Source: Fimicolochytrium jonesii
Taxonomy: Eukaryota
DNA: 64,000 nt
Direction of reading: 5' to 3'
Assembly: GCF_025526975.1 (NCBI RefSeq)
Contig: NW_026515704.1
Location: 1-64,000 of the forward strand
Shown here one piece after another: positions 1,811 through 24,376 of this stretch. Each line of letters begins with the position of its first letter. Position 1 is the first letter of the stretch. The translations under genes were made by a program, and so were the position numbers. The notes below the pieces were generated by a model, which ran no database searches, had not been told where the DNA came from, and worked only from the letters and a program-made list of their open reading frames with translations.

Positions 1811-1897
1811 TAACCCTAACCCTAACCCTAACCCTAACCCTAACCCTAACCCTTACCCTAACCCTAACCCTAACCCTAACCCTAACCCTAACCCTAA
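1811..1897 (+). repeat. Telomeric repeat tract (TAACCC)n, ~14 units
   Basis: Read directly; one TTACCC variant; abuts the fibre ORF. Confidence 0.97.
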
Positions 1898-4800: not shown

Positions 4801-6408
4801 AACGGTGACTGTGGAGTCTCCGGCCTGTAGGTCCAGTTGGAGATCATTCTCGACCCTCTTCACACCTTGGCTGGCGGTCAGCTTCTCTCCGAACGTGTTG
4901 TTCCCGTCAAAGGTTATGGCTCCGGAGACGGTAGGTGCAAGTTTGACCTGATTCTGGTTCTCTATCTTGAGACCGCCGTTTCCTGGCTGGAACGTGAGTC
5001 CGATACCGATCTTACCGTCAATCACTCGAACACCTTTGTTGTCCACCAATGGCGTAACGTTGACCCCCAACACCTGGTTCTCGACCGCCAAAGTAGCGTC
5101 CGTACGCAAACTCACCGTCCGCCTACATCCGCTCACTCCGCTGATATCAATAGGGGAGCCCGTATCGCTCTGATACAGCTGTTCCACATAGGCGCTTGTA
5201 GGAACTTCGTTGTTTGACGGGGAGAAGTTGCTGTTGACTATTACGTGCGGCGCTCTTAGTTCGTTCAGCGTCTCGTTATATGTGAAACCCGAGTCCGAGT
5301 TTAAGCCAGATATGGCGTTGTGGAAAGGTACCCACCCCCTTCCAGCTGAGCGGATCGCCAGGCGTCCATTTGTCTGCTGAAAATCCTCACTGGTTTTCAA
5401 GCGGATGACGCTCGCGTCCGCGTCAACATCATCATCCAGCAGCTCGCTGATGGTCGAATATCCGAGCTCCAAGTGATCATCCAGCGCCAGTGAGGAGGCT
5501 TTATCGCTGCTGACGGCTCCTCTGCCGAACACCACCTGGGAGATATTGGTACCCAATTCATTTTCGTCGGTTACTTCAAGACCCTTACCTAGGGAAATGC
5601 TCAAAGTTCCATCTTGGCGCGTCAAAGGCGCCTCAATGGCCTCTGGAACTACGCTCAAAGCCCCATCTAAAACATGGAGACTGCCATCCGTGTGCAAGGA
5701 CACGGTCTTGTCTGCTGTGGCAGATTCATGCAGAGGAGCTTCATAGTTTGTTGGGACGATGGCCAAAGCGCCCGTGGCGTCCACGGCGAAGTCATCCGTA
5801 TTCAATTTCAACCCTACGCCTGACCCGTCTCGCGTTAAGGGTTGCTTTAGCGGTTCCTTTGGGACGGACAAGTCTCCATTCGCCGTTACAACGAGCGTAG
5901 AATCGTGCCGCAATTCGATGCCATCCCTGTCTCGAATCAGAGGAGGCTGAAGTGTTTCTGGGGCAGGGAAGACTACGGAAAGCTCCCCATCATTGACCTT
6001 CAAGGTATCTTGGTCGTACGAGAGCGTCAGGCCCTCATCCGTGACCGTTAATGGATCCGTCCATTTCAGTGTAAGGCGGTTGTCCGTCTCATCTAGAGGC
6101 GCGATGACCTCAACTTTTGGCACGGGAGTTGTGCCGAGTTTACCAGTGACTCGGAGGGTCTCATCATGAACAAGGCTGACGGTTGCCAGCCCGGCTTCGG
6201 TCTTCGATTCCAGCGGCTCGGTGGCCCCTACGCGATTCACTTCCAACGGGCCATTCTCGTTGGACACGGCCCGAAACGCCGCTGAATCGAAGCCACTCAT
6301 AGACATTTTGTCGCCAGCAGCTTTGATCGAACTACTCACGGTGGGCGCTACCAGGTTGAGCCGATCCAGCGTCCTGATGCCGCTGCTTGTCCGAGAGTTG
6401 ATGTTCAT
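1894..6408 (-). CDS. Viral fibre/spike protein (1504 aa), probably C-terminally truncated by the telomere tract
   Basis: N-terminal repeats such as PLTRDGSGVGLKLN and APLTRQDGTLSISLGKGLEV resemble triple beta-spiral shafts. Later AGxGLTxTGxxFSV and HAATKAYVD motifs resemble phage/NCLDV fibres. The stop TAG is part of the first TTAGGG. Confidence 0.8.
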   Translation of the reverse strand: MNINSRTSSGIRTLDRLNLVAPTVSSSIKAAGDKMSMSGFDSAAFRAVSNENGPLEVNRVGATEPLESKTEAGLATVSLVHDETLRVTGKLGTTPVPKVEVIAPLDETDNRLTLKWTDPLTVTDEGLTLSYDQDTLKVNDGELSVVFPAPETLQPPLIRDRDGIELRHDSTLVVTANGDLSVPKEPLKQPLTRDGSGVGLKLNTDDFAVDATGALAIVPTNYEAPLHESATADKTVSLHTDGSLHVLDGALSVVPEAIEAPLTRQDGTLSISLGKGLEVTDENELGTNISQVVFGRGAVSSDKASSLALDDHLELGYSTISELLDDDVDADASVIRLKTSEDFQQTNGRLAIRSAGRGWVPFHNAISGLNSDSGFTYNETLNELRAPHVIVNSNFSPSNNEVPTSAYVEQLYQSDTGSPIDISGVSGCRRTVSLRTDATLAVENQVLGVNVTPLVDNKGVRVIDGKIGIGLTFQPGNGGLKIENQNQVKLAPTVSGAITFDGNNTFGEKLTASQGVKRVENDLQLDLQAGDSTVTVTGNSVKGNYQANNGVHPTGNTISGAYTAGNNIGISGSTISCTYQPEPEAPTVITGTLPIIVTGADKDFNISKQPLVISGGAGIIVAGSESTGYVISSVQPYKQKKQDSDPEENTEESDPFAESDPLTASGSSPVVSVTGPLGFLLSSGASLIGGPLASGVAVAPTSAFGALGALAGAVGGTTIVGGFASVFGREQKNKTDASGNPIIDANNNPVLEDGWQVIISTLPKPDDTSCDVTRLLFDTPSVCSYRGVLNEVPQQAVNLDILKQYHTAAIKPQIDLKFDKTGILPYAQLSGVPDLSVYEKKLTFAPSPVLTRAADTVTFDSTKITSLGTVTLSGGLTGTTATFSGAISSPTLSNYLLSATAATSYQPLNAKLSTIAASTAAASYFLVGDGTNYASTSPTNARSALGLGSFSLKSSLDLALDVGTSVLPEPRIDALIARKTYVDSLVVTAGSGLTKTGTAFSVNAAQPGITSVGTLGSLSDLGNSRTQGVIVQGSQPALNLSSTATGGACWQLYSTVTGDSLGPGFLSLLNTTGGGSTPVLNVNGNDLTVTIARALIVSGAVTVPATPSNPTHAASKGYVDGLINTTQTGAQPLNSKLSTISNATATASYFLVGDGTNFISTSPAASRSALGLGSTALKNSITLTTDVTGVLPLANLDSQVSTKAYVDAQTTTAGSNLSKSGTTLSLVPDAWLNSLYLTSTDLTSSALTVDGIGQFGQVQASDLVVSGGSDLQDVTVNASLNVIGASSLSGLDVTGNASISGVLNIGGTATVSTPTLSLHAATKAYVDGLYTAGTGLTRTGNAFSVNASQPGITSLGTLQTNSTTSDVLKIQSLSASGFSTIGFLNNTGTVVGAFGYAGTGTSAPNAGNFFLYSGSAANFVINSNVPSVQILSTADSSSSTSGAFQVKGGAGFAGNVNVGKDLTVAGTIYSNISSAGPIVQSHLGAPNLSAGSFTTLQLGVSAGT

Positions 6409-6475
6409 CTCGGAGGAAGCAGATGATTCCTAGATTGATAACAAGGGAGGGAAAAAAAAGCGATATGAGATCTGC

Positions 6476-6772
6476 TCAGGCCAGAGGAATGTTCTGCAGA
6501 TGCCCGAGGAATTGATCGCCTCCTTTGTGGTAAGCATCAACCTTCTTTAGCCCTAGATCAGCAAAGGAGCCTACCTTACGTGAAGCTTCCTTCACCTTGT
6601 CGTCGAAGATATCATTGGTTTCGACTCCCTGGTGGACATGAGTTAAGAGCTTGTGGCCAGTCCTGACACCCGAGACCGCTTGATCGAGGAATCCCCGAGC
6701 CTTCTGAATGTGACCTGGAACTTTCGAAAAGAAAGTGTTTGCTTTGCTTCGTGCTTTGTCAAAGAATCCCAT
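6476..6772 (-). CDS. Small basic amphipathic protein (98 aa), candidate virion membrane-lytic/internal protein
   Basis: MGFFDKARSKANTFFSKV: Gly2 followed by an amphipathic helix pattern; located between fibre and capsid genes. Confidence 0.55.
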   Translation of the reverse strand: MGFFDKARSKANTFFSKVPGHIQKARGFLDQAVSGVRTGHKLLTHVHQGVETNDIFDDKVKEASRKVGSFADLGLKKVDAYHKGGDQFLGHLQNIPLA

Positions 6773-6837
6773 CCGTGCTGCTTGCCGCCTGCGTTTCTTT
6801 TTCTCTTACTTAGCGCAAAGAGAAAAAGAAACCACAG

Positions 6838-8397
6838 ATGGTTGAATTCGACGACAGAAACGCTGGCCTGCCAACTGCTGCTGCTTTTACTTACCCAAAC
6901 CAGCCTATTCTCAACATCCATGCGAGACAGTACGGCTTCATCCGCGGTAAACCAGGGGCAACGTTCAACAGATTGTTCCATACAGGGTTTTACGTGCCAG
7001 GAAAGGGCGTGGTGAAAGATGTCTTCAACAGACCGCTCTCAGTTGCAGAGAAAGTCACCCTCCGAGCTGCTCCGTACCAAAGCAAGGTCGCTCGGGATGC
7101 GGTTGATGCTCTCCATGCCGTGGAGAAGGAACGGGCGAAGCAAGCTTATTTCGATGAGCTCGACGCCAATAATCTTTTCCCGCGTAGGGGCAGGACCATT
7201 GCCTTACCCAGATCGGTTGCATCCCAGACGAACTCAGACGGCTCAGCCACCATCTTCCACCAGCCGGCATGGGTGCGAACTCAGCAGAACCAATTTGTGG
7301 GGGATGTGACCAGCAACGTCCAGCGAGGCGGCGATTCGCATCTGCCAGAGAAGGGCAACAGCAATGCAGGAAAGCCCATCCTTGGAATCAATCCCGTTGT
7401 GACGAAACGCGATGATGGCGAGAGTCTGACCGACGAAATTGGGCGACTGGGAAAGGTGTCGGGAATCACTTTCGGAACTCAGACCAGTCCCGTCCTGTCT
7501 CCCCCCAAACATGCAGTTCGCGATATGCGTTCGGTGGCGTCGGAAACCAACATGCCTGACATTGGCAGAACCACATTGGACCTCATATTCGCAAACGGCG
7601 GCCGCTTCCAGACGTTCATGGACCAGCTGCGTTTCGGGAACGAGACGCTTCAGCAGCAGCTTCGGGGGCAGGAAGCCCAGCTGGGTAACATATCAGCTGC
7701 CACTATGTCCACATTCAAGAACATCCTCGTTTCCATGGGCTTCCAGGAAAGTAGCCTTCCTGCGACGATCAGTCCAGACGAGATGTTGCGTCTCGTGAAG
7801 CAGGTTGAGACAATTTCTCCGGTAGCAATCACCGAGATAGCAGCTATGCGAACCCTTATAGAGACTTTGAAGAAGCAGAGAACGCAGGAGGTTGCCGATA
7901 TGGGAACGCAGTACTCACCTCCTTCCACACCGGCAGCTGCCTCCAGTCGTCCCGTTCCTCCACCTATCCAGACCCAGTGGCAACCGAGGGGGTCACCGAC
8001 TCCATCCCTTCCATCCGTCGATTCTATCTTTGGTCAAAGCAGCCTGAATTCATCCCCAGAGCGGTATGGGCATAGCAGCGGGAGGTCTACACGACCTATG
8101 TCTATCTCTCCGGACGTAGCACCCCAGTTCTCTCCCGAACCCCAGCCTTCTGCTCCTGGTCCTAGCAGCTTGAAACGAACCGCAGATCCAACCCAGACGG
8201 AAATATTCGGCCCTGAATATACGGTGGAGGCCGACCAAGACACTCCGGTTGTCCCCTTACAAAAGGCAGCTAAAGGCAAAGGAAAGGCACCGGCCGTAAG
8301 ATCATCCAAGAGAGAAGCTGCAGCACCTGAGAAGTTGTCTGACGACGCTGGATTCAAACAGACCTCGACTCGGAAAGGGAAAGGGAAGGCTAAGTAA
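6838..8397 (+). CDS. Hypothetical viral protein (519 aa) with central coiled coil, P/S-rich region and basic C-terminus
   Basis: Long intact ATG ORF; ends STRKGKGKAK; no family recognised. Confidence 0.7.
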   Translation: MVEFDDRNAGLPTAAAFTYPNQPILNIHARQYGFIRGKPGATFNRLFHTGFYVPGKGVVKDVFNRPLSVAEKVTLRAAPYQSKVARDAVDALHAVEKERAKQAYFDELDANNLFPRRGRTIALPRSVASQTNSDGSATIFHQPAWVRTQQNQFVGDVTSNVQRGGDSHLPEKGNSNAGKPILGINPVVTKRDDGESLTDEIGRLGKVSGITFGTQTSPVLSPPKHAVRDMRSVASETNMPDIGRTTLDLIFANGGRFQTFMDQLRFGNETLQQQLRGQEAQLGNISAATMSTFKNILVSMGFQESSLPATISPDEMLRLVKQVETISPVAITEIAAMRTLIETLKKQRTQEVADMGTQYSPPSTPAAASSRPVPPPIQTQWQPRGSPTPSLPSVDSIFGQSSLNSSPERYGHSSGRSTRPMSISPDVAPQFSPEPQPSAPGPSSLKRTADPTQTEIFGPEYTVEADQDTPVVPLQKAAKGKGKAPAVRSSKREAAAPEKLSDDAGFKQTSTRKGKGKAK

Positions 8398-8461
8398 GTT
8401 TACTCATCCCATGTCTTCACTCGTTCTATGTATGTATGGGTTACTGCGCGTCTTATCGCCT

Positions 8462-8488
8462 GCGCCACCGTCTTATGTACGGTGGTGC
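8462..8488. terminator. Stem-loop between convergent viral genes (possible 3'-end signal)
   Basis: GCGCCACCGT-CTTATGT-ACGGTGGTGC, a 10 bp stem with one G-T pair. Confidence 0.35.
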
Positions 8489-8763
8489 GAACGAAGTCTT
8501 GTGTTTATCGATGAGATTATCGATGAGTATTGTGTTTATCGATAAACTCGACGGCCAGTTTGGGCCAGCAAAAATGTGCCGTATGGTTATCGTCCCCTGC
8601 GCTTCGCCGCAGCCTGTCGCTCCAACACGAATCTTCTTAACTGGGGAGGAATGACCCCCTTCTTAGGTTTCCCTGATCCTGTTCGTGCTGTTGTAAGTGC
8701 TAGTTTCCTCGCCATACGTTTATGAGTCTCGCTTCTGTCTCTACAACTAGAAAAAAATTGCTA

Positions 8764-9987
8764 CTATACGACGTCCACCGTGGACCCAATGAGGAGCGTG
8801 CGGTGGTTGTAGACAGTAGTTAGCAACAACACGGCCGTGCTTGGCGCCGGTAACGCGTGCGTTGTGATTACGCGGAGGTTACCGTCTGATCCGACAACGT
8901 TCAACGAAGACTCTGTGTCCTCATCAGATGACTGCCAGCTGTATCGCATGACAAACCGTTCGGTGAAGAAGTTTGTCAGATCCACATCTTCCGAGTAGTA
9001 ACTGGCGTTATCACTCATGGACAGGGCACCGATCATGACACTGTCAGACACGTCGAAGTCGTCTGTGAGAGGGAGACGCCAACCGCCTAGCTGAAATCGC
9101 CACGACTTCAAGTTAGCTGTGGTGTAGATACGCAACTTGTCTCCCGTGGTCGTTGCATAGGTGTTATCGTCCCGGAAGCGGTGAGTGAGACCAGTGACAC
9201 GGCTATTCGTCAATGGCAGGATGAAGTTGTTCTGAGACGCCCCACTGCAGGTATTGGACAGCTGGTTGACAGACACGAAGTCCATCTCCAGGTACTTGCC
9301 CGCCTGGATTCCCTTCCAGAGCGTGGAAAGATACTCGCTGCTTGGGGTGACAAGCTGGGCCACGTAGCGGAGGTTGCTCACGGTGAAGTAGGAACCGGCA
9401 GGAGCATCTGTGAACGCGCTTTGGGGGGTGTTGAGAGGCAAGGACAGCTCACAAGCTTGGTTAGGCAAGACGCACAGAGGCAGCGGTTGACCGTTCAGGG
9501 GCCTCATGCTCCCAAACTGAAGATGATGTTTGAAAGTGAAACCCCCAGCATCGTTTTTGAAAGCGTTTGGAGCCGCTACCCCTTCGTGGTATGCAGGATA
9601 CTTTCGCCTTTCCTTGTCCACGAATTGGTACAGGTCGGTCAAGAACAAGGGAAAATCGGTAATCTCATCTACAAGCTTCCCGCCGATTCTAATGGAAGCT
9701 GATCTGAAGCACCCCATTGCGCCAATGTCGGACACAGTGGCCGTCTTCAGAGCTGTCCCATCGGCGTTGAAAAGGGAGACGGTCCCACTCAGGTATGACC
9801 TTTGGGGCCGCAGGAACGACGAGTTACTGTCAATCACTACTTTGACACTATTTGCGCTTGTCCTCGAATCAAAATTTTCCTTGATCGGACGATAGATGGC
9901 GATGTTTTCACTCAGGGCGTCGCTATGCATCGAGAATTGCCTACTAGCGTACTGCCAGTTAGCAGGTACCACGGGATTTGTGCTCAT
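8764..9987 (-). CDS. Major capsid protein, PLV-type double jelly-roll (407 aa)
   Basis: SFLRPQRSYLSGTV and GAMGCFRSASIRIGGKLVDEITDF match the FLxPxxSYL and GAxxxIxxxxIxxGxxxxExI pattern of PLV MCPs; beta-rich; size and context fit. Confidence 0.82.
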   Translation of the reverse strand: MSTNPVVPANWQYASRQFSMHSDALSENIAIYRPIKENFDSRTSANSVKVVIDSNSSFLRPQRSYLSGTVSLFNADGTALKTATVSDIGAMGCFRSASIRIGGKLVDEITDFPLFLTDLYQFVDKERRKYPAYHEGVAAPNAFKNDAGGFTFKHHLQFGSMRPLNGQPLPLCVLPNQACELSLPLNTPQSAFTDAPAGSYFTVSNLRYVAQLVTPSSEYLSTLWKGIQAGKYLEMDFVSVNQLSNTCSGASQNNFILPLTNSRVTGLTHRFRDDNTYATTTGDKLRIYTTANLKSWRFQLGGWRLPLTDDFDVSDSVMIGALSMSDNASYYSEDVDLTNFFTERFVMRYSWQSSDEDTESSLNVVGSDGNLRVITTHALPAPSTAVLLLTTVYNHRTLLIGSTVDVV

Positions 9988-10067
9988 GTTTAGGTGTGCT
10001 TCACCACCTTCCCTCTACGTTACTTGGTTAGGGATTGAGAAAAAAAAGTTGCCAGCACATGCCAATC

Positions 10068-10625
10068 CTAACTCCAACGCGATCCGAAGATGCCCATGAA
10101 TTCGTCTACGCGTGTTGACTGGGCGGAAGGGCCATCCACAACCGTCTCTTCATCTTTGGAACTGTAAGCGATATCATCAGGTAACTCTGGGCTTGCAGCC
10201 CGACGTGAAGGTTGTGGCTTCTTAGCTGCCGTCTGCTTAGGTTGGACCCCTGCCATCTGATGGCGCTCAGCCTTTCTGGCAGCCCGTTCCTCCTTTGCTT
10301 TCAGTTTCGCTTTCTCCTTCTCCCGTTCGTACTTTTCTATGATCTTCCGAGCTCGTTCCTTTTCTGCTTCCTTCTGCTCCAGCTCCCGCCGCTTAGCCTC
10401 CTCCGCTTCCTGCTCTTTTTTCATCTTAGTCAGCTTCCGCAGGTTCTCCGCGCGTTTCTGCTGAGCACGCTTCAGTGCCTCCAGCTGGGCTGGTGTTCTG
10501 GGCTTCTTCTGACGCTCTTTGATGGTTGCGTCAAGGACCTCATCGAGACCATCGTCTGCCGCAGGGACTGGAGTAGGAGGCCGATTTGCGTTCTCCTGTA
10601 CTGGCCTATCCTTATAATCCTCCAT
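10068..10625 (-). CDS. K/E-rich coiled-coil viral protein (185 aa)
   Basis: KKPRTPAQLEALKRAQQKRAENLRK followed by a charged helix; lies between penton and MCP. Confidence 0.7.
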   Translation of the reverse strand: MEDYKDRPVQENANRPPTPVPAADDGLDEVLDATIKERQKKPRTPAQLEALKRAQQKRAENLRKLTKMKKEQEAEEAKRRELEQKEAEKERARKIIEKYEREKEKAKLKAKEERAARKAERHQMAGVQPKQTAAKKPQPSRRAASPELPDDIAYSSKDEETVVDGPSAQSTRVDEFMGIFGSRWS

Positions 10626-10683
10626 TGCAGCTTCTGTTATGAAGCTACCTGTAGAAAAAAATTCGTGAGGCTATTCATCTCGT

Positions 10684-11442
10684 CTACGCCACGCGATTCG
10701 GGAGCATGTCTGAGGGGTCATCGAAGATACCAATCGTGACTATCATAGGGCTATTGGTCTGAATCTCATGCAGCGTTGCGCTGTTGACTAGAGCGATGTC
10801 CACTTCGGTGAGAGTAGTGTCTTCAAGAGCATGGAAGCGGTCGCTTGGGTTCACCCATGTGATCACATCGTTGAAATTATCTGGAACAATGGCACAGAGA
10901 ATATTCATATCACTGTTGATCCCCGCTGGATAGAGGACAGCTCCGTTGGTTTGAAGCGTCCAGGATGTCAAGAGGATAGGTTGGGATGCAGAAAGGTTCA
11001 GCGTGTTTGGTAGCTCAAACGATGTGCCGTAGCCAGTCTCCGAAGCTTTGGAGATTCCAAGCTGTAAGTACGCGCTCGATCCGCGATTCCCTTCAAGAAT
11101 CTTGAACTGCTTTGTCCCAGTGGTTTTAACCCTTAACCGACGCGTGACTTCGTTGTATTCGCATTGATACGCTTGCGTACCCTTCGAAGTCAATGCGCTG
11201 GCCACAGCGTCCAGGATGCTGGCACTGCTGTAAGTTCCGGACGGAAGAGTCGCCTTGATGGGCGTCAAAGAGCCTTGCTCGACAAACATGATGGAACTGT
11301 TGGACACATCTGTGGCATCCATGTTTTGAAGGAAGCAGACACTTACGACTCGAAAACCATAGCAGGCTATAGGCGACATGCGAAAAGTGGCTTGATTCAG
11401 ATCAGCCAAGGTTCCCGTGTTCAGGATCAGCTCTCGGTACAT
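10684..11442 (-). CDS. Minor capsid protein / penton (252 aa)
   Basis: TLPSGTYSSASILDAVASAL matches the (I/L)PxGxY motif of PLV/virophage pentons; C-terminal LTEVDIALVN strand. Confidence 0.8.
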   Translation of the reverse strand: MYRELILNTGTLADLNQATFRMSPIACYGFRVVSVCFLQNMDATDVSNSSIMFVEQGSLTPIKATLPSGTYSSASILDAVASALTSKGTQAYQCEYNEVTRRLRVKTTGTKQFKILEGNRGSSAYLQLGISKASETGYGTSFELPNTLNLSASQPILLTSWTLQTNGAVLYPAGINSDMNILCAIVPDNFNDVITWVNPSDRFHALEDTTLTEVDIALVNSATLHEIQTNSPMIVTIGIFDDPSDMLPNRVA

Positions 11443-11511
11443 TGCTTAGCTGCGTGATGTCTACTGTTTATATTGGGTTGCTAAGAAAATAACACAAAGT
11501 GAGACGCCTGA

Positions 11512-12282
11512 GACGCCCCGGAAGTTTCTAAGGCTAAGGTACCAAAGGAGTTCGAGATCCATCTCAAGGATGAGACACCTCAAAGCTACCCGAGAAAGTT
11601 CTTTGCTTTGACAATGGTAGGGAGTTCGCGGAGTGGCAAGACAACCTCAATAGTCAACTTCATAGACAAACTGGCGCCCGTGTACAGTATAGTTGTTGTC
11701 TTCACGCCATCCAGTTCAGATGTAACTTGGACTGCCTTACGTAAGCACGAAAATGTATTAGTAGCAGATCTTATCTCAAATCACGTGCTCCATACCCTGT
11801 TCGAGCGCCAGACGAAGCTGTATGCGGCGAATAAGGAAGAGAATCATATGCTGATCGTCATCGACGACTTTGGTATCCTCAGTCAAGAGAAAGGACCAGA
11901 TATCGGAAAACCACCTAAGCAGCCTGAGCTTGTATCGAGCGGGATAAAGCAGATGCTCGATCTTCTCTATAGTCGACCTCCGCATCGAGGCTGCAGTCTG
12001 ATCGTGTCCTATCATGACTCCCTGCAAATGTCCCCTCTAGTTCGGGTCAATAGCACCCATTGGGTTCTGTACCGCCTCAATCTAAAGCAATATGAGAAGA
12101 TTGCACCGGAAGTCGCGTGTCATGTCTCGCAGAAGGAGTTCATCTCGCTTGCAGACGCGTATACCAAACAGCCATTCAATTTCATGTACGTGGATTTGAA
12201 GGCACATGAGAACAAGGATGTATTCAAACATGGCAAGCCAGCGCCGATGAAAGAAATTACTTCAACAAAGGCAAAGAAGTGA
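11512..12282 (+). CDS. A32/FtsK-like DNA packaging ATPase (start uncertain)
   Basis: Walker A GSSRSGKT, Walker B MLIVIDD, SPLVRVN motif. The frame is open from 11512 but has no ATG before 11614. The usual RGRH motif reads RPPH. Confidence 0.85.
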   Translation, partial: DAPEVSKAKVPKEFEIHLKDETPQSYPRKFFALTMVGSSRSGKTTSIVNFIDKLAPVYSIVVVFTPSSSDVTWTALRKHENVLVADLISNHVLHTLFERQTKLYAANKEENHMLIVIDDFGILSQEKGPDIGKPPKQPELVSSGIKQMLDLLYSRPPHRGCSLIVSYHDSLQMSPLVRVNSTHWVLYRLNLKQYEKIAPEVACHVSQKEFISLADAYTKQPFNFMYVDLKAHENKDVFKHGKPAPMKEITSTKAKK

Positions 12283-12293
12283 CAAGGAAGAAC

Positions 12294-13547
12294 ATGGCAG
12301 ATGAAGGCCCCCTGCCCGAGAGGCAGGACTACCACAAGGCAGTCACCGCGGCGGATGAGGCACGTTTGAAGCGCTTCTACTATGAAAAAAAAAACATCTT
12401 AGGCAGAGATCGGCTCTGGTTTTCTTTCCGCAAAGCCTTTCCCGATTCCACCATATCACAGCGAACGATTCTCTCGTGGCTCAAGAGACAGAAGATATGG
12501 CAGCAAACGACACCGCCGCATGGAAGTGGAGGCAGCATCCGTCCCATCCTTTCATCCTCACCTGGTGCTTTCCAGATCGATTGTATCAACCTCAGCGCGG
12601 TGGCGTTCGGCAGGTTCCGTTACATCGTGAACGCGGTTGACATATTCTCCAAACGCCTCTTCTCCATGGCCATGAAGACACAGGATCAGGCAAATGTGGT
12701 TCGCTTTCTCAACCAGATGAAAGCTACGCCTGGGGTCAAGCTTAGATCCTTCACGAGTGACAACGGGTCTGAATTCCAAGGTACTGTGCAAACGTGGGCG
12801 CGAGAGAAGGGGGTTACGTGGTCCTTCGGGAAGCCCGGTCGGCCAGGGACTCAGGGTCAAGTCGAGCGTATTAATGGCACTTTGAAGCGGTTGCTCTACG
12901 CCGGGATAAGACTTGGTGATAGAAACTGGCCGGCATCCCTGCCGCAGCTCGTCCAGAATGTCAACTCCACGAAAACGCGAACGACTGGAGTGTCCCCGTT
13001 GGAAGCAGAAGCAGCTGGAGAGGATGAGAAAGGTGAGATCTATCAGCGGCTGGTGACGGGCAAGACTAAGGGTAGGGGAATCAAGTTGCAGCCACCACTC
13101 AAGGTCGGGGATGTTGTTCGGATGCTGAAAGGAACCGGTGGGACTAACATCCAGCGACGGGCGAAAACGGGTTACTTTGGGGATGAGACGTACAGGGTGA
13201 TGCAGATGGTGAAGAGTAACTTTGCCAATTACTCAGCATCATACAAACTGTTCGATATAGGCCGGGGAGAGGTCATGAGAGGTCTCTATCCTGCATCCTC
13301 GCTGAGGCTAGTGCCGCCTGAAACAAACGAGGATCAAGGCTCGGTCCCGCTCCCCCCCGACGACAACGATGAATACGAGGTAGAAGCTTTGATCGGGAAG
13401 CGGACTAGACGCGTAAGGGGAAGGCAGGTTGTGGAGTACAGAGTCCTTTACGTAGGCTATCCTGAAAGTGAAAGCACCTGGGAGCCGCGAACGGAGCTGC
13501 TGGAAACAGCACCCGTTCTGGTTGAAGAGTACGACAATGCTCACTGA
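12294..13547 (+). CDS. Retroviral-type (rve) DDE integrase with C-terminal chromodomain
   Basis: FQIDCINL, VDIFSK, SDNGSEF and QGQVERINGTLK give the D,D,E triad; chromodomain EYEVEALIGKR...EYRVLYVGYPESESTWEP. Confidence 0.93.
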   Translation: MADEGPLPERQDYHKAVTAADEARLKRFYYEKKNILGRDRLWFSFRKAFPDSTISQRTILSWLKRQKIWQQTTPPHGSGGSIRPILSSSPGAFQIDCINLSAVAFGRFRYIVNAVDIFSKRLFSMAMKTQDQANVVRFLNQMKATPGVKLRSFTSDNGSEFQGTVQTWAREKGVTWSFGKPGRPGTQGQVERINGTLKRLLYAGIRLGDRNWPASLPQLVQNVNSTKTRTTGVSPLEAEAAGEDEKGEIYQRLVTGKTKGRGIKLQPPLKVGDVVRMLKGTGGTNIQRRAKTGYFGDETYRVMQMVKSNFANYSASYKLFDIGRGEVMRGLYPASSLRLVPPETNEDQGSVPLPPDDNDEYEVEALIGKRTRRVRGRQVVEYRVLYVGYPESESTWEPRTELLETAPVLVEEYDNAH

Positions 13548-13765
13548 ATGGCCATTGCTATGAGCCACGCTGCTGCAAAAGCTTCCTTGGGATTGGACTC
13601 GTGAACATGTCTCCATCCTTTTCGTGTCAAGAGCAGCAGGTCATTCCGTTCCCATAGTCTCCACACTTCGGCCATCCTTTTTAGCCGACGTAAAAGTAGA
13701 CGCGATTGGATGTCCCCGGACATAGATGTTTTTTTAAGTTACTTTACTAAGAAAGACGTTGACGG

Positions 13766-14023
13766 ATGGTTTATACAAGCTTAACGCAAGTACAGAGGGA
13801 CCGCATCCGACAGCAAGGTTGGGAACCGTTGAAGGAGAAACTCGCCAGCAACTCTCTATGGCTGATCCTTGACGAGACTGTCAGAGCGCGAATCTGGGGT
13901 AAACTGTATGAAGAAATCAGTGAAGATATCTTCTTAGAAACTGTCAGTGTGGTCTACCCGCCTTCACCAGCCAAAGGTAGGAAGCCGCAAGGCAAGAAAG
14001 CAGAAACAGAATCGACAAGCTGA
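13766..14023 (+). CDS. Hypothetical viral protein (85 aa)
   Basis: ATG ORF filling the intergenic space, with a basic tail. Confidence 0.5.
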   Translation: MVYTSLTQVQRDRIRQQGWEPLKEKLASNSLWLILDETVRARIWGKLYEEISEDIFLETVSVVYPPSPAKGRKPQGKKAETESTS

Positions 14024-14131
14024 TTTCGCATCGCGTTTATCGATAAACTCAGAGAGCAAACGCGTACATAAAAAGCCCTCGCATATACGGTGATGGAATG
14101 TATACATGTATGTAGCATTTATACATTCAAC

Positions 14132-14656
14132 ATGACTCCTTTCCCTCCGGAAATCATAAACAGGATCGTGGACTTTCTCCCACACAACGACCATCGGTCG
14201 CTCCTCTTCACTTTCGGACGCATGGACCTCCTACGTGCCAAGTTGGAGGCTCACATGACGAGCCGAGCCCGTCTTGAGTACGATTGGAACTACGACGACG
14301 CTGTCGTAGACGCCTGGCAACAAACAATCGGTGGAACCAGAGGGGTCATCCATTTGAGAACAAGAGTCTATCCTGATGGTCGTTGCGTTGATATCACGCA
14401 CGTCGGGGCGCTCGAAAAATGTCACCTCCAATACGTTGAGAACGCTAGCGGCGGGTACATTCGTCGTCACTACTGCTTTGAAAGGTATCTTGAAGTTGAT
14501 TGGGTCTGGGGAGAGTGTGCGTACCATCAAGAAGGATATTATCGATTCCCCCAAATGTGTAACTGGCGTTGCGGATGCCGAAGTCACATGTTGTGCATAC
14601 CAAGCTGGTGGCGCCTCTCCAACATGCCTCTCCGACAGGTTGAGGAGTATGTTTAA
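14132..14656 (+). CDS. F-box-like protein (174 aa)
   Basis: N-terminal PFPPEIINRIVDFLP fits the F-box consensus LPxEIxxxIxxxL. Confidence 0.6.
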   Translation: MTPFPPEIINRIVDFLPHNDHRSLLFTFGRMDLLRAKLEAHMTSRARLEYDWNYDDAVVDAWQQTIGGTRGVIHLRTRVYPDGRCVDITHVGALEKCHLQYVENASGGYIRRHYCFERYLEVDWVWGECAYHQEGYYRFPQMCNWRCGCRSHMLCIPSWWRLSNMPLRQVEEYV

Positions 14657-14705
14657 ATCGTGCGCGGCCAAAAGGACCTCACAGTGGAAGCGTAGATGGT
14701 AGTAC

Positions 14706-14928
14706 CTTATGCGTCTTAGAACCGCATATTATACCACCATTCCCGCATATAGCACCTCTCCATCATTGCTCAACTGGTACTCGTCCGAATCTGACCGTCT
14801 TATACTTCTTAGAACCTTTTTTGAGAAAGTGTTGAGAATAAGGAAGGAAAAAGGATGGTAGCTTAGAGATGAAAGGGCGGTACTGTGGGACTTTGCTGGA
14901 AACGGTATAATCATTCTAAGTGATCTAA
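14706..14928 (+). repeat. Left arm of a ~222 bp imperfect inverted repeat
   Basis: Reverse complement of 17957-18178; identical blocks TCTTATACTTCTTAGAACCTTTTTTGAGAAAG and GCGGTACTGTGGGACTTTGCTG. Confidence 0.93.
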
Positions 14929-15285
14929 GTTCTCCAATCACTGCCCGCGTCTATAAAAGGAGGTCATGTACAGAGCAACTTACTACGCTCAATCCTATAC
15001 GGCTAGCGACTCTGATACATTCCAGCCCTGGTAACCGCGCGAAGGACTGAATCTTTACTGATATTGAGAAGCATTGCTAAGTTTCGGATCGTATCGGCTG
15101 TGAAAGTCTTCTGGAAACCGCCGACATCGAGGTGAGCAGTGTATGTGTACTTCTGTGTCTTCATGGCGAGTCTTTGTCCTGTACCTATAGGCTGCCAACA
15201 TCATTTTTAATCTGCTGCGTTTCCCTGCGTTTGGATGCAGTTATCTCTTTTCTTGTCCTTATAACAGGACCGTGCTTAGGCCAGG

Positions 15286-17956
15286 ATGAGCAACACATTC
15301 AAGAAACCCCGTCTTTCCGAGTTTGATGCGAAAGGCATCTCAAAAGGGCAGCTGCTGGAGGCAGCGGAAGAGTATCAGAGGCAAGGATTCATCCCTGTGC
15401 CTGCCAAGGTAAAAGGCTACAAGTGGAACCAAGAGCTAGGAAAGTTCAAAAAGCAAATGACCTTCGAGAAGGAGTTCACGAGCACCACGCTTGATGATTG
15501 CCTTGAAAGATTCAAAGCCTTGACGAAAGTAAACGCGATCGCGTTGCTCTGTGGGCCTAAGAGTGACACTTTCGCAGTCGATGTTGACGACATAGCGAAG
15601 TTCGATTCTTGGTTGGAAGCTGAAGGCAAACCTATCGAGACAGCCGTTCAGCATCGGGGGTTGGACGACACTACCTGTTTCGGTCAGACGAGCGCCTTCG
15701 CGGCTTGGAAGGTCAGCAGAACATTTCCTTCCCGGGAGATATCAAGCTGGATGTTGACCTCCGAGGCGGGGATAAGTACACCATCCTCGTCGAACCGACA
15801 AAGCTTTGGAGTCCGGACAAACAGCATGTCTTTGAGTATCGGTGGGCAGTACCCCGCACACAGCTGCGAGCTTCGCTAAAGCCTACTCCCGACTGGCTCT
15901 ACAAGGCGATTGAGAGCAATAAGAAGGCACACAAGAAAAGCCCTTCATTTTCATCCTCGTCCTCTTCCTCGGTTGCACCCTCCTCAAAGGCGTCCTCATC
16001 CGAAAAGTGGGAACCTGAAGGACTTACGCAAGCTTCTTGTGATACCATTGCAAAAGTGTGTTCAGAGACTTTTCCAGAGTTCGACCAGACGGATTTCTTC
16101 CGCATCCAGTGGTACCGTACCTGCATCTTGGCACGGGTCCGGAGTTCGCACTGCCTTTTGAAGGAAAGCGATCACAATGATAAGCCCGGTCACGGCTACC
16201 TGGTCGTTGCTCGAACAAAATCATCTACCGGTGCTTTAGCACAAAGTACGCCGAGTGTTCTGGTGGGGAGATAAAGCGACCCATCGAGAAACAGGAAAGC
16301 GGACTGGCTATGACAAAACTTTACACCGACCATTCTCCCATGGCCGCACAATGTAGCGCGATCGTTACTAGCACCTTACCGATCGAAGATCGAGCGGTGG
16401 CGGAACTGGTGCTTAGTCAACTGGAAGGCACAGTCGTACGCACCACCGGGTCCGAACCGCTGAAATGGCACGCGTATAATGATGTTGCAGGAATTTGGGA
16501 AGTGAAGGACGCCGGGGTCATAGCACGCCTGATCTTCGACTCCATCGCGGAGGAGTCGAGACAGCTGCAGACGTACTATGAAGCTGAAAGGAAGAAGCTC
16601 GTTTCTGCAGATGCGGAGGGGACCGATGAAGCGCAGGGGAAACAAAACAAAAAGGAGCTCGATCGTCTAATCGGCCGGGCAAAGGCCTTGTACTCACACG
16701 TCAGTGCGAACCGAACAATGAGCTCAACACTGCGCAAACTACAAGATGACATATGTGATGACCGAGTCAGGAAGCTTTGGGATACGAGAGATGACCTTCT
16801 TCACTTTTCCAACGGAGTGTATGATTTCAGCAAGACGGAGTTCCGGAAGAGCAGCCCACAGGACTATTCCACTCGTGCATTGACTCTCGAATATGTCCCG
16901 TACGCACAGCACCCTCCTCACAAGAAGGCAGCCGTCAAGAAGTTCTTCTCCGACATAACTTTGGATAATCAAGAGCTGGAGGATTTTTTGCTGAAGATTC
17001 TGGCTTCTATTCTTCACGGAGATGACCCGAACCAGTTAGGTTTTTTCTTTGCCGGGTCAGGATCGAATGGGAAATCCGCCCTGATTCGACTTCTCAATCA
17101 CGCTCTTGGGCCCTATTGTACTTCGCTTTCCACTGCTTTATTGGGTTCCGAGCCCAACAACGGAAACGCTGCTAGCCCTGCTCTGATGCAACTTAAGGGC
17201 ATGCGAGGGGCCTTCGCTACTGAGTACGAGCGGCCAACCATGGAAACCGGCTTCATCAAATCTTGGATCGGACGTGACCAGCATACCGCCCGCGAGAACT
17301 ATGGTAGTAACGAGAACTTCACCATCAAAGCCACTTTCCTTCTCGCGTTGAATAACATGCCTATCATTCGCGACAAGACTCATGGCTTCTGGCGGAAGCT
17401 GTGCAAGATACCCTTCAATGCTGAGTTTGTCTCTCATACTCCTAACATGCCGAACGAACGGGAATCTTCACCCGACTTTGAGAAGAAGCACCTGCTACCT
17501 GCAGCAGACACATTCTTGGCGTTACTAGTGGATGTATACTACCCGAGATATGAAAGCGAAGGGATGAAACGATCCGTCTGGCCGCAATGCGTCATAGACG
17601 CAACGGACGAGTATCGTCACACCCAAAACACCGCGGCGGAGTTCTTCGAAAACTATGTGAGACCCCCAACGAGTCAAGAACACTACATTACCTGCTCCGC
17701 CTTCGATGCGCTTTTCGTAAAGTTCTGTGAAAAGAAAGGCATCCCATCAGGCAAGCACATCGTAGGTCTGCGTGACTTGATGGACAAGAAGTACCTTCCT
17801 GGCAAAGACCCCAAAGATAAGAATTGCCACAACTTTCATGTCCCTCCTTCTTTCGGGGAGGCTAAGGGCAAGACCATCCGCGGCTGGAAATGTGTTGTAA
17901 GCCAGGAATGGAAGGTTGAAGACCCGAAGGATGCCGAAGAGCCCGGGGAGCGATGA
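15286..17956 (+). pseudogene. Prim-Pol primase + zinc finger + D5-like SF3 helicase; one gene with two frameshifts (~15650, ~16215)
   Basis: Primase: NAIALLCG..FAVDVD, then after a shift SGVGRHYLF and DVDLRGG..VEPT. Zn finger: HCLLKESDH..HGYL, then after a shift IYRCF..EC. D5_N: LLHFSNGVYDF. Walker A: GSGSNGKS; also GFWRKL. Confidence 0.88.
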
Positions 17957-18178
17957 TTAGACCATTTAGAACAATTATACCGTTTTCAGCAAAGTCCCAC
18001 AGTACCGCTCCTTCATCTTGTAGCTACATCCTTTTCCTTCTTTTATCCTCAAACCTTTCTCAAAAAAGGTTCTAAGAAGTATAAGATGTACAGTTCCGGA
18101 CGATTACCGGTTGGTTAACGACGGAGAGGTGCTATATGCGGAAATGGCGGTATAATATGCGGGTATAAGACGCATAAG
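17957..18178 (-). repeat. Right arm of the inverted repeat
   Basis: Starts on the base after the helicase stop codon; reverse complement of 14706-14928. Confidence 0.93.
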
Positions 18179-18188
18179 CTGAAACCAT

Positions 18189-18905
18189 CTACGCCTCCAC
18201 GGTGAGGGTCCGTTTCGCCCCACATGGTCTGCAGTACCTCTGCATTAGGAGAATCGTAGCTATGTCACATCCTTGGCAAGCGCGGAAACGCGGGACGATG
18301 CTCATCCTTTTACAAACGCAGTTGTAACAGGTTCCAGGCGATACATCCTTCGCCAGGCACTTTGCCCCAGACGGTAAAGTCACCTTTCGCTCGCCTTCGG
18401 CGAACCGGTACTTCCTCTGGCACCCTTTACAATCAGCGAGAGACCGATAGAAGGCGACCTGACCTTTGGCGACGACATCTTGCTCTTTGAACCATCTAAC
18501 GCAATCATTCCCCATTCTGATCAGACGTCTCGTCTTCTCGTTCCAGAGATAATACACAGATCGGATCAGATGCATGCATACACAGGCGTCCTCAGAATCA
18601 ATGTGCTCGATATGCTCCCCGTTGTCCTTTCTCAGCCCATTACATACTTCAGCAAAATCATAGACGCCTTGAACGCCAAACCTCTGGTAGAAGGTTCTGA
18701 TCGCCATGATCTCTAACCTCCCGTCAACCGTTGTCTCCACCTCTTCTGCTACCCCATCCGCGAGTTAGGTATGACCCACTACCTTCCATTCCCCCCGTGC
18801 CGAATGGAAGTTGTCCGCTAAGGATGCCAGTGGGACCTTCTTTTGCAAGATCTCTCGATGATGTTTTGCGACCTCCTTCATCATCATCTTTGTCCTAGAC
18901 ACCAT
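18189..18905 (-). pseudogene. Cys-rich zinc-binding viral protein with an in-frame TAA at 18765-18767
   Basis: Same frame from ATG 18905 (..SARGEWKV..) through CVCMHLI..WNEKT..MGNDCVRWF and several CxxC pairs; the pattern resembles proteins of large DNA viruses. Confidence 0.6.
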
Positions 18906-20697: not shown

Positions 20698-22290
20698 ATG
20701 AGTGATTCCGACAGCGAGACGCGCCAGACAGAGCTGGTCATCAACTTGCAATCCTGCGACGTCCCTGGGATGATCCGCACGTACATCGACAGCCCGTACA
20801 ATACCAATCGCGTGAATGAGAGAACACGCCGTTTGGCAAATGTGAGCCAATACTGGTTCGCCGGCCTGCTAGTCGACCTATCCAGGCGGGAGCAGCTCAG
20901 AGCTGCCATCTTGGCCCGCAACCCGCGCCTCGGTAACAACACCCTCGGTCAATACCTTGGCTATGTTTCAACTTTCCTTGAAAACATACTTGAGCATCCC
21001 GACCTCGTCGCTCAGGTGGCTCTTGCCCTCCATGCCAAAACTGCGCAAACAAGGCTTGCCCTCAAAAGGGATGCGACAGCGCTGAGGATCTTTGCCAATA
21101 GGATCCAAGCGGGACTTCCCAACCCCCAAGCAGCGATGGCGGTTCCGTCTGTTCAAGGCATCGACGCAGAGACCACCGCGGACGCCGATGCGCAACAAAC
21201 GGCCGCAGTGAACCATCGCGAACGAAACGACTTCAGCGAGGATGAGTGGGAGATAGTCAAGGACATTAAGCTTGACAGACTCTTCCCACAAATCGTTTAA
21301 GGTGGAATAGAGCGAGTACGACGCTTTTCCGACGGATTGGCTGCCGACCGTCGATACCAGGTGGAGCTAGGCATCCACTTGATCCGCTACGGTTGCGAGC
21401 CCAATTGTCGCTCCGCTCATATCAAGGAGAAGCACGACATTGCTTCTGCTGGAAACGAGGACTCATTGGCCTTGTTTTCGCAGCTTGGGGAGGTTCACTC
21501 CTACCATGCAAGGGCCAAGCATCAAGAGCGCGTGATAACCCAGCTCGGCAACATCTCTGCCCACTACCAGACCGACTTCTACAAGATGTTCCGCAAAGAT
21601 CTGCCTCTGGGTGAAACCGAGGGGTGCCTCTTCACGAACAAGGATGACCGACCTTGGGACGCAAACGAGTTCCGCGACGTCATGAACCGTCTTCTGCAGG
21701 AGCTGACGGGTCACAACGTCACCCTCAATCTCCTTCGGATCCTTGAGATCACCTTGAACCGCCCGCCCGACATGACCAACGAGGTAGAGCGCCGGTTCGC
21801 GCACGTTCGTGGCCATACCGTCGAGGAAAATCGTTGGTACGACCGTTGGAGCGGCAAGCTTCGTCTAGAGCAGTATCAAGCTGAACAGGCTGCGCTGCAA
21901 GCTCGACCCTTAGAGGACCCCACTCCACCTCCCGCGGCGCAGCGACTTCGGGTTACTGGTCCGAACTTTCCCGACCTGGCGGTTACCGTCAACCAGATTG
22001 TGCAGCGTCTTATGCCTGGATTAGTCACCAATATCGTCGCCCAGCTGCAAGACCGGCCTGAGCACGAGGACGGCGCTCACTCTGCAGGTGACGATCAAAG
22101 GACCGGATCGGTTGTAGCGGACGATCCAGTATTTACTTATGGCATGGAACCAGAAGTGATTGCGGCCAGCGACGGACCGTTTGCCGAGACGGTTCAAGTT
22201 GCGCTGATCAAAGATGCGGTGGTCAACAAGGCTGAAGATGCGTCGGCTGACAAAGAAGAAGGCCTTGAACTTGTCCCTGTTGACCCTTGA
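20698..22290 (+). pseudogene. Tyrosine recombinase-like gene with one in-frame TAA at 21298-21300
   Basis: ORFs 20698-21300 and 21337-22290 share a frame. YGCEPNCR (catalytic R), CLFTNKD, TLNLLRI and FAHVRGHTVEENRWY give an R..xxxR..GH..Y arrangement. Confidence 0.7.
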
Positions 22291-23533: not shown

Positions 23534-23579
23534 GTGTCGTAGTGCAGGTGTAATTTAAATTACACCTGCACTACGACAC
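23534..23579. repeat. Perfect 46 bp palindrome
   Basis: GTGTCGTAGTGCAGGTGTAATTT|AAATTACACCTGCACTACGACAC. Confidence 0.97.
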
Positions 23580-23644: not shown

Positions 23645-24376
23645 TGTTGGAGGTATCATCCTCCCGAGTCCTTAGTTAGGGTTCCCGTAGTTGAGTCCCT
23701 AGTTAGGGTTTCTACTAGTTAAGTTCCCCTTGTGACTCACCTCCCGCTTACGCCACGCTTACGCGTACGGGAGTTCACTCCTTTCTTCCCCCTCGGACCT
23801 CACGTCCGTTTTCTACACACAAGACTTCAATACATACTTCACAGTACTACATCTCACACAACATAGAGTTCGCTCAGTCATCTGCTTCCTCTGCCGACTA
23901 CTGCTAAGTAGTCCAGCCAAAGCGACGGCTATCTGGTACTCTAGATGAAGAAGCCTGTCTTCCTGCTTGATAGGAATATACCCTTCCTGATTGGGATCCA
24001 TTGGGTCCATCAAGAAGGGGTTGTCGGTTCCCGCGGGTCCGCAAAATTTGGGCGCATTCACACACGTCGTGGTTGCGTCTTCCAACTCTGCAATAGACTT
24101 TTCCCCCTTCCTCTCTTCCACATATCCACCGGGCATTTAGTCGGCGGCAGCGGGTTCGGGAGAGCTCTTCCTGAGTTTGGTTGTTGAATCCAAGTTGACA
24201 ATTGGCGACGGGAGACCGAGAGTTCTTTATGCTGACTCGTCCGCTAGTTGCGGGCGGAGCCAGGGCTCATAACCACTTACCAGTAGTCGGCAGAGGGAGC
24301 AGATGACTGAGCGAACTCTATGTGATGGGGAGACGAAGCCCTTGTCTGTGTATGAAGATATATAGAGAAGTCTAGT
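23645..24376. mobile_element. Relics of an older LTR family (C), two fragments in opposite orientation
   Basis: TGTTGGAGGTATCATCCTCCCGAGTCC at 23645 is the reverse complement of the sequence ending at 49883. 23862-23909 is inverted relative to ~24275-24322, and 24255-24360 resembles 49615-49720. Confidence 0.6.

What the first reader, a model, noticed from the sequence alone, without database searches (positions are those of the whole stretch)
14706..18178. Primase-helicase cassette bracketed by ~222 bp inverted repeats inside the virus
Seen: the two arms (roughly 80% identical by eye, with identical blocks of 32 and 22 bp) enclose only the replication gene and its upstream region, and the right arm starts on the base after the stop codon. 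Inference, three options: an invertible segment flipped by the element's tyrosine recombinase (analogous to Flp/FRT amplification of the yeast 2-micron plasmid), paired replication origins, or a mobile replication module that displaced the ancestral PolB.
Basis: partly seen in the sequence, partly recalled or inferred. Interest (0 to 1): 0.75.

Follow-up and report, generated by a model that had tools for sequence, protein, structure and literature searches.

The report
Paired iteron origins around viral primase-helicase
In an integrated DNA virus whose closest relatives lie in chytrid fungi, the DNA-copying gene sits between two mirror-image 263-base arms that each carry eight short, evenly spaced repeats facing an easily melted centre, so the arms are likely two copies of the start site that this enzyme would bind to begin replication, and less likely the ends of a recombinase-flipped switch.

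Summary
The arms are real and longer than reported: 14666-14928 and 17957-18219, 84% identical, with no third copy in the window. They enclose one primase-polymerase/D5 helicase gene with two frameshifts, in a Polinton-like virus with chytrid relatives. Each arm holds eight 7-bp repeats (TTA[GT]A[AC]C-like, mostly 9-bp spacing): three face inward from the gene side, five face back. The centres are the first and third easiest-melting 60-mers of the virus. This is the SaPI origin layout, and the helicase model aligns to SaPI PriRep5 into its C-terminal domain. Facing 9-bp repeats follow 19 of 90 distant D5 genes against 13 of 219 controls. The left arm also carries a synonymously diverged copy of the right neighbour's last 11 codons, so it is probably an old duplicate of origin plus gene tail. 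Flp/FRT-like flipping is weak: only a chance-level dyad. No target duplication was found. Orientation in sister copies could not be tested. The scan noted the same layout before in giant viruses (unchecked notes). Verdict: likely paired origins, a new variant of a known replicon design.

The parts
14666..14928 (-). Left arm (inverted copy of the origin-like element); weak homology extends to 14661
   Evidence: 84% identical to the right arm
14661..14695 (+). Diverged copy of the last 11 codons and stop of ORF 18189-18707(-), with a 1-bp gap
   Evidence: 5 synonymous and 1 non-synonymous differences, 1 indel
14707..14737 (+). Left arm, outer three repeat units (14707 degenerate, 14716, 14729)
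14800..14817 (+). Left arm, middle two repeat units (14800, 14809), inside the 32-bp identical block
14797..14860 (.). Left melting centre: third least stable 60-bp window of the virus, 68% AT
14902..14928 (-). Left arm, three tandem 9-bp units on the gene side, ending 23 bp before the TATA box
14952..14957 (+). TATAAA, predicted promoter of the primase-helicase gene (one of 2 plus-strand TATAAA in 1894-23600); predicted leader intron 15132-15267
   Evidence: function inferred
15286..17956 (+). Primase-polymerase / D5-family SF3 helicase gene, about 890 codons, two frameshifts (near 15645-15660 and 16202-16214)
17957..18219 (+). Right arm (origin-like element at the canonical place, directly after the stop codon); weak homology to 18224
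17957..17983 (+). Right arm, three tandem 9-bp units starting on the base after the stop
18031..18092 (.). Right melting centre: least stable 60-bp window of the virus, 70% AT; holds two reversed units (5' ends 18075, 18084) and a 7-bp stem with a 6-nt loop
18147..18177 (-). Right arm, outer three reversed units (5' ends 18155, 18168, 18177 degenerate)
18189..18707 (-). 172-aa Cys-rich ORF whose last codons and stop lie in the right arm; no homologue found
   Evidence: (weak Atlas lead)
14093..14656 (+). 187-aa ORF ending just outside the left arm (F-box-like start recalled from memory; no Pfam hit)
20698..22290 (+). Probable tyrosine recombinase gene, in-frame stop at 21298-21300
   Evidence: Atlas 0.94, PF00589 on 29% of members: a lead; no Pfam or PHROG hit to a recombinase family
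23534..23579 (.). Perfect 46-bp palindrome at the probable right end of the virus
1894..13547 (.). Rest of the virus: fibre-like ORF 1894-6408(-), putative major capsid 8764-9987(-), A32-like ATPase 11614-12282, rve integrase with chromodomain 12294-13547
   Evidence: the capsid label is inferred from context and size, not from a family hit or fold

Best explanation
The two arms are inverted copies of one repeat-array element that is likely the replication origin of the enclosed primase-helicase, and the left arm is likely an old duplicate that the virus probably kept in use. Shown: each arm has three 9-bp-spaced units on the gene side, five units facing back and an easily melted centre; the right arm begins on the base after the stop codon; the left arm ends 23 bp before a TATA box and carries a copy of the right neighbour's last codons. 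Inferred by analogy with SaPI PriRep5: the C-terminal winged-helix domain of the hexameric D5 helicase binds the units, the ring loads itself and melts the centre, and the fused primase-polymerase starts synthesis, which would replace a PolB. Inferred history: a block of origin plus neighbouring gene was duplicated in inverted orientation (or came from a sister virus); the left gene copy stayed coding long enough to diverge synonymously and was later replaced by another ORF. Inferred role of the left copy: second loading site and/or operator for the primase-helicase promoter. Any inversion would be an occasional by-product of homologous recombination at the 32- and 22-bp blocks, not a recombinase switch. 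This copy, as assembled, has two frameshifts.
For: (1) A motif taken only from the three gene-side units of the right arm finds 3 more units in the distal part of each arm, all on the opposite strand; dinucleotide shuffles P 0.0003 and 0.0007; 2 matches in the other 21,178 bp of the virus. (2) Repeat cores differ at 4 of 56 positions, the rest at 31 of 176 (Fisher p 0.039); one unit switches between two variants of the motif (TTAGAAC / TTATACC). (3) The centres rank 1 and 3 among the least stable 60-bp windows of 1894-23600. (4) SaPI origins have 6-12 iterons directly after rep, at least two on each side of an AT-rich centre in opposite directions, bound by a winged-helix CTD (PMC9371898, passages; about 300 bp, 10.64898/2026.10.17.759575, introduction). 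(5) The helicase model (pLDDT 77) aligns to SaPI5 PriRep 7om0 at Z 27.1, rmsd 5.3, 408 residues, model 9-533 to chain 318-764; that entry's CTD is 676-790. (6) Facing 9-bp-period repeats lie after 19 of 90 distant D5 genes against 13 of 219 other long ORFs in the same loci (p 1.6e-4; period 8 p 0.03, the five other periods not significant). (7) Gene tail: 5 synonymous, 1 non-synonymous change (p 0.006 if both copies were neutral); the non-coding arm outside the repeat cores has diverged less (31 of 176) than these synonymous sites (p 0.015-0.039).
Against: No binding or replication data. No sister copy, close relative or read set could be examined, so conservation of the pair is untested. Tight bracketing of the gene by long arms was found in 0 of 59 adequately flanked distant D5 loci, so two arms are not the family norm. 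The strict periodicity test used on those loci is met by the left arm but not the right, which needs a looser setting. The 90 loci are not independent (11 near-identical pairs among all loci fetched), and several clear examples look bacterial or phage-like. The left arm's conservation could date from a donor virus, not from use at this place. If only the left gene tail was neutral, the synonymous bias is borderline (p 0.05-0.08), and it rests on 6 changes. Clustering of identity is borderline (p 0.05-0.10). The centre is only 68-70% AT. The C-terminal domain folded alone gave a low-confidence model (pLDDT 51) and was not searched.
Confidence: 0.5

Rival explanations
1. Only the right arm is a working origin. 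The left arm is the leftover origin of a related D5 replication module that was replaced when two sister viruses recombined (capsid and rve half joined to a primase-helicase and YR half).
For: The left arm carries a gene tail with mostly synonymous changes and only one non-synonymous change and one indel, as expected if it left a coding context recently. The virus has both rve and a probable YR. Replication modules are often swapped in these viruses (PMC11296320 sections 8-9; PMC8502044 passages; 10.64898/2026.06.19.733378 passages). A single origin after the gene is the usual state.
Against: No remnant of a second helicase beside the left arm (only noise, best E 0.03). The inner boundary matches the first repeat unit exactly and abuts the TATA box, a tight fit for a random join. 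All eight units are retained.
Confidence: 0.22
2. The arms plus gene are a self-contained one-gene replicon that moves between viruses without a transposase, by replicating from its own arms and recombining through them, and takes over replication of the virus it enters.
For: The unit is minimal: arm, 23 bp, TATA, leader, gene, arm. Unchecked notes of this scan describe 2.8-2.9-kb units of the same design in several copies in giant viruses (e1-5355798, e1-5329255). Repeat-flanked accessory D5-like helicases are proposed to be mobile in entomopoxviruses (PMC11296320 section 9). The closest full-length relative, P0069, sits on a 3,285-bp contig, a lead only.
Against: No target-site duplication at the outer ends. 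The outer end of the arm is the coding tail of a resident ORF with a synonymous bias. GC and dinucleotide content match the rest of the virus (0.509 against 0.519). No second copy in the window or in the collections scanned.
Confidence: 0.18
3. The element's tyrosine recombinase flips the cassette at a core inside the arms, as Flp does at FRT, to switch forks into amplification.
For: A probable YR is encoded. A weak dyad with an identical 6-7-bp spacer lies in the 32-bp identical block (14808-14836; 7-bp stem in the right arm, 4-bp in the left). The genes on both sides point toward the cassette, so a flip would break no ORF.
Against: The dyad pairs only 7 of 11 or 8 of 13 bases in both arms; shuffles give a mean best of 0.70, and 25 of 200 reach the right arm's best. 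FRT has 13-bp binding elements around an 8-bp spacer that must be identical (PMC1635253 passages). The other stem has spacers that differ. Repeated flipping would be expected to homogenise the arms (inference), yet they differ by 16%. The arms share no match over 9 bp (best E 1.1) with the terminal region beside the YR, where a perfect 46-bp palindrome offers another substrate.
Confidence: 0.07
4. Assembly artefact joining two proviruses or folding a read back.
For: Both frameshifts lie near short homopolymer runs; two retrotransposon copies in the window differ by nine 1-bp gaps, so some sequencing error is possible. No reads could be checked.
Against: A fold-back would give near-identical arms; these differ by 16% with a synonymous pattern.
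Confidence: 0.03

Closest known systems
SaPI/PICI replication module, SaPI5 PriRep (PDB 7OLA, 7OM0) with its iteron origin (PMC9371898; 10.64898/2026.10.17.759575)
   Same: Fused primase and SF3 helicase; repeat array directly after the stop codon; units in opposite directions on both sides of an AT-richer centre; 8 units (SaPI 6-12); about 260 bp (SaPI about 300); fold match extends into the CTD.
   Different: [quoted passage not shown]
Satellite phage P4 alpha protein with ori1 and crr (recalled; search gave no source that I read)
   Same: One primase-helicase and two separate cis sites with the same repeat, one just after the gene (recalled).
   Different: As recalled, P4's two sites are not full-length inverted copies that bracket the gene.
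PLV end module and replicon-replacement model (PMC11296320, sections 8 and 9 part 1 read)
   Same: Primase-helicase, YR and inverted repeats proposed as origin; repeat-flanked D5-like helicases proposed to be mobile.
   Different: There the repeats are the terminal ones, on one side of the gene; here they are internal, bracket the gene alone and resolve into iteron arrays; the probable terminus is a separate palindrome 5.4 kb away.
Powellomyces MELD viruses and other chytrid PLVs (PMC8502044 passages; 10.64898/2026.06.19.733378 passages)
   Same: Chytrid host group, adenovirus-like fibre, varied non-PolB replicases.
   Different: The passages read mention no internal origin or arms around the replicase; the genome records and supplements were not seen.
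Yeast 2-micron plasmid Flp/FRT (PMC1635253 passages; amplification model recalled)
   Same: Long inverted repeats and a tyrosine recombinase in one replicon.
   Different: No strong 13-8-13 dyad; arms 16% diverged; the arms themselves look like origins.

Membership tests
SaPI/P4-type iteron origin of a primase-SF3 helicase | Array lies directly after the rep gene | tested here: met
   First unit starts at 17957, the base after the stop
SaPI/P4-type iteron origin of a primase-SF3 helicase | 6-12 short repeats, at least two on each side of the centre, in opposite directions | tested here: met
   8 units per arm, 3 forward and 5 reverse; shuffle P 0.0003 and 0.0007
SaPI/P4-type iteron origin of a primase-SF3 helicase | AT-rich, easily melted centre | tested here: met
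   Ranks 1 and 3 for instability in the virus, 68-70% AT; modest in absolute terms and overlapping the middle units
SaPI/P4-type iteron origin of a primase-SF3 helicase | Helicase with a C-terminal winged-helix domain | tested here: inconclusive
   Three helices and two strands at 441-526; the whole-model match to 7om0 runs to chain residue 764; the domain alone folded poorly and was not searched
SaPI/P4-type iteron origin of a primase-SF3 helicase | Protein binds the repeats and replication starts there | not testable with these tools
   Needs binding and replication assays
Flp/FRT-like YR invertible segment | Dyad of 11-14-bp binding elements around a 6-8-bp spacer | tested here: not met
   Best shared dyad 7 of 11 or 8 of 13 pairs, at shuffle level
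Flp/FRT-like YR invertible segment | Identical spacer in both sites | tested here: inconclusive
   Identical for the weak dyad in the 32-bp block; different for the 6-bp stem at 14707-14727
Flp/FRT-like YR invertible segment | Both orientations occur | not testable with these tools
   No genome, no runs listed
TIR-bounded mobile element | Target-site duplication at the outer ends | tested here: not met
   Only 4-5-bp matches, at positions that do not fit the arm ends
TIR-bounded mobile element | Further copies or empty sites | tested here: inconclusive
   None in the window or in the scanned collections; the rest of the genome was not available
Polinton-like virus | Packaging ATPase, capsid genes, integrase and replicase in 15-30 kb | tested here: met
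   A32-like hit below cut-off, rve and chromo above, D5, fibre repeats; the putative capsid has 15 relatives, 11 of them named from chytrid genomes; capsid fold not tested
Polinton-like virus | Terminal inverted repeats on both ends | tested here: inconclusive
   Right end has tandem repeats and a palindrome; the left end stops at telomere-type repeats inside the fibre-like ORF

The most novel reading that the evidence does not exclude
The 3.55-kb unit is a member of an undescribed class of one-gene replicons: a primase-polymerase/D5 helicase between two inverted arms that are its own origins. It spreads among eukaryotic DNA viruses without a transposase, can sit in either orientation, and drives the turnover of replication genes seen in Polinton-like viruses.
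Probability: 0.18. Interest if true: 0.8.

Novelty: new variant of a known kind. Interest (0 to 1): 0.5.

Why it matters
How most Polinton-like viruses replicate is stated to be unknown (abstract start of 10.64898/2026.07.28.741278), and their terminal repeats have been proposed as origins (PMC11296320). This locus gives a base-level candidate for an internal origin, with named repeat units, a melting centre and a natural second copy that shows which bases are kept. It can be tested with one protein domain and a 260-bp probe. If both arms work, it is a two-origin design around the initiator gene, possibly self-regulating. A search for 'polinton-like' with 'iteron' found 0 papers in the held library; searches found no description of such arms. 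These searches do not cover most subscription journals.

Tried and rejected
Whole genome: none held. Sequencing runs: none was listed for 9000-18900, so no reads were laid; this is no evidence either way. Related loci: helicase alone or in small alignments in viral contigs, capsid alignment in viral and metagenome contigs and helicase alignment in prokaryote genomes gave no relative; the 98 loci are distant (23-33% identity), none from the chytrid clade, and none encodes a relative of the other ten viral ORFs tested. Arm DNA: one 18-bp match in a 162-kb viral contig with no further similarity, taken as chance; none. Rfam: one chance-level match inside the coding region (E 0.75). Single-strand folding of the arms is not better than shuffles (z 0.26 and -1.36), so a hairpin or RNA element was rejected. 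Arms as protein-coding: all six frames have stops; only the outer 35 bp show a coding pattern. Weak inverted matches around D5 genes in L015 and L022 were rejected as AT-rich low-complexity matches; the near relative L014 shows none. ORF 14376-14702 is not a paralogue of the 172-aa ORF beyond the shared tail. The 172-aa ORF has no homologue. The helicase C-terminal domain alone gave pLDDT 51. Supplements and genome maps of the MELD and PLV papers were not read and may show such arms.
Full report
Observation. The repeat finder lists two inverted segments at 14677-14928 and 17957-18207. A local alignment joins them into arms 14666-14928 and 17957-18219, 223 of 265 columns identical, with perfect blocks of 32, 22 and 19 bp and no third copy in the window. 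The right arm starts on the base after the stop codon at 17954-17956.

Context. The arms lie in a virus-like region from 1894 to about 23580: fibre repeats, an A32-like ATPase (below the Pfam cut-off), an rve integrase with chromodomain and a D5 helicase. The putative capsid ORF has 15 relatives, 11 named from Gaertneriomyces, Geranomyces, Phlyctochytrium and Powellomyces. Of the ten closest helicase clusters looked up, eight are named from chytrid genomes and two are unnamed. A probable tyrosine recombinase with one in-frame stop (a lead; no recombinase hit) precedes tandem repeats and a perfect 46-bp palindrome at 23534-23579. Ty3 retrotransposons follow. No whole genome or run was available.

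The enclosed gene. The 861-aa relative P0069 matches three consecutive frames from 15334 to 17899 (combined E 7e-97), so this is one primase-polymerase/D5 gene with two frameshifts; both lie near short homopolymer runs and may be sequencing errors. The helicase part folds with mean pLDDT 77. It matches ASFV PrimPol best (Z 30.6), and SaPI5 PriRep 7om0 at Z 27.1, rmsd 5.3, over model 9-533 and chain 318-764, which runs into the CTD at 676-790. The C-terminal domain folded alone was low-confidence.

What the arms are. Read in the gene's direction, each arm opens with three tandem 9-bp units. A 7-bp motif defined from these three units of the right arm alone finds three more in the distal part of each arm, all on the opposite strand (shuffle P 0.0003 and 0.0007), against two in the other 21,178 bp of the virus; a relaxed motif gives eight units per arm, three forward and five reverse. 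Cores differ at 4 of 56 positions, other positions at 31 of 176 (p 0.039). The arm centres are the first and third least stable 60-bp windows of the virus, 70% and 68% AT. The strands do not fold better than shuffles. SaPI origins are described as 6-12 iterons directly after rep, in opposite directions on both sides of an AT-rich centre, bound by a winged-helix CTD (PMC9371898, passages; 10.64898/2026.10.17.759575, abstract and introduction). The match of layout is close; function is inferred.

Comparison with distant D5 genes. Searches gave 98 loci at 23-33% identity, none from the chytrid clade. Of the 90 with at least 150 bases after the stop, 19 have facing repeats with a 9-bp period, against 13 of 219 regions after other long ORFs (p 1.6e-4); period 8 gave p 0.03 and the five other periods were not significant. 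The loci are not independent (11 near-identical pairs). Under this strict test the left arm scores and the right arm does not unless the setting is loosened. Tight bracketing by long arms was seen in 0 of 59 adequately flanked loci; six of them have looser or more distant bracketing repeats. L063, left out of the 59 for its short flank, has its repeat array 62 bp after the stop and a perfect inverted copy one gene upstream. So a repeat array after a D5 gene is common, and a full second inverted copy hugging the gene is not.

Origin of the left arm. The outer 35 bp of the right arm are the last codons and stop of ORF 18189-18707(-). The left arm has a copy with five synonymous changes, one non-synonymous change and a 1-bp gap (p 0.006 if both copies were neutral, 0.05-0.08 if only the left was). 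That ORF has no homologue but shows the three-frame pattern of the other viral genes. The non-coding arm outside the repeat cores has diverged less than these synonymous sites (p 0.015-0.039; small numbers). I infer that origin and gene were copied together long ago or came from a sister virus, and that the arm was constrained or homogenised since. No remnant of a second helicase lies beside the left arm. The left arm ends 23 bp before a TATAAA, so its three inner units sit where an operator would.

Rivals. Recombinase flipping: the best dyad shared by both arms with an identical spacer lies in the 32-bp block but pairs only 7 of 11 or 8 of 13 bases, at shuffle level; the better 6-bp stem has different spacers; FRT needs 13-bp elements and an identical 8-bp spacer (PMC1635253, passages). 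It is weak but not excluded, because orientation could not be tested. Mobile module: no target-site duplication and no compositional contrast, but the unit is minimal, repeat-flanked helicases are proposed to be mobile in PMC11296320 (sections 8 and 9 part 1), and unchecked notes of this scan describe the same design in giant viruses, read there as mobile (e1-5355798, e1-5329255) or as a duplicated origin (e1-5534484). I reached the iteron reading before seeing those notes; they raised my odds for the mobile reading and I could not test their claims. Relic of a module swap remains open; replicase exchange is reported for Powellomyces MELD viruses (PMC8502044, passages) and PLVs in general.

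Verdict. The arms are real. They are most likely two inverted copies of a SaPI-type iteron origin for the enclosed primase-helicase (about 0.8 for the origin reading of the right arm; 0.5 that both were in use). The design is known from bacterial satellites; its presence inside a fungal Polinton-like virus, doubled around the gene, was not found in the held library. Other papers seen: 10.64898/2026.07.28.741278 (passages), PMC10120064 (passages). P4 ori1/crr, the 2-micron amplification model and the F-box label are recalled and come from no call.

Noticed in passing
window 23534-23579: Perfect 46-bp palindrome without a spacer after the tandem repeats at the probable virus end; a possible substrate for the nearby recombinase (hairpin-telomere resolution as in phage N15 is recalled) or a priming hairpin as proposed in 10.64898/2026.07.28.741278.
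   Followed up: partly
window 8504, 8536, 14037, 20608, 23153, 23320: Recurring motif TTATCGATAAACTC (with variants) between genes and in the terminal repeats; possible viral promoter or regulator site.
   Followed up: no
window 1348-1900: Two 331-bp-spaced units with CCCTAA runs; the 1,504-aa fibre-like ORF takes its stop codon from the telomere-type repeat, so the left part of the virus is probably cut off or interrupted there.
   Followed up: no
window 15132-15267: Canonical splice donor and acceptor in the leader of the primase-helicase gene; a predicted 5' untranslated intron in a viral gene.
   Followed up: no
window 12294-13547 and 20698-22290: The virus encodes both an rve integrase with chromodomain and a probable tyrosine recombinase.
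   Followed up: partly
L063 1-123 and 3084-3206; L058 1-123 and 6949-7070: Two bacterial-looking contigs with D5-family genes are bounded at both ends by the same 122-123-bp iteron element in inverted orientation; in L058 it is detached from the helicase gene, as if the origin-like element had multiplied on its own.
   Followed up: partly
window 24377-48846: Nested Ty3 chromovirus-type retrotransposons in both orientations directly after the virus end; two copies differ by 110 substitutions and 11 gaps over 5.8 kb.
   Followed up: no
window 23861-24323 and 56949-57607: Short elements bounded by 52-bp and 34-bp inverted repeats, MITE-like.
   Followed up: no
window 59474-63142: Long Ser/Thr-rich repeat ORF, mucin- or adhesin-like host gene.
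   Followed up: no
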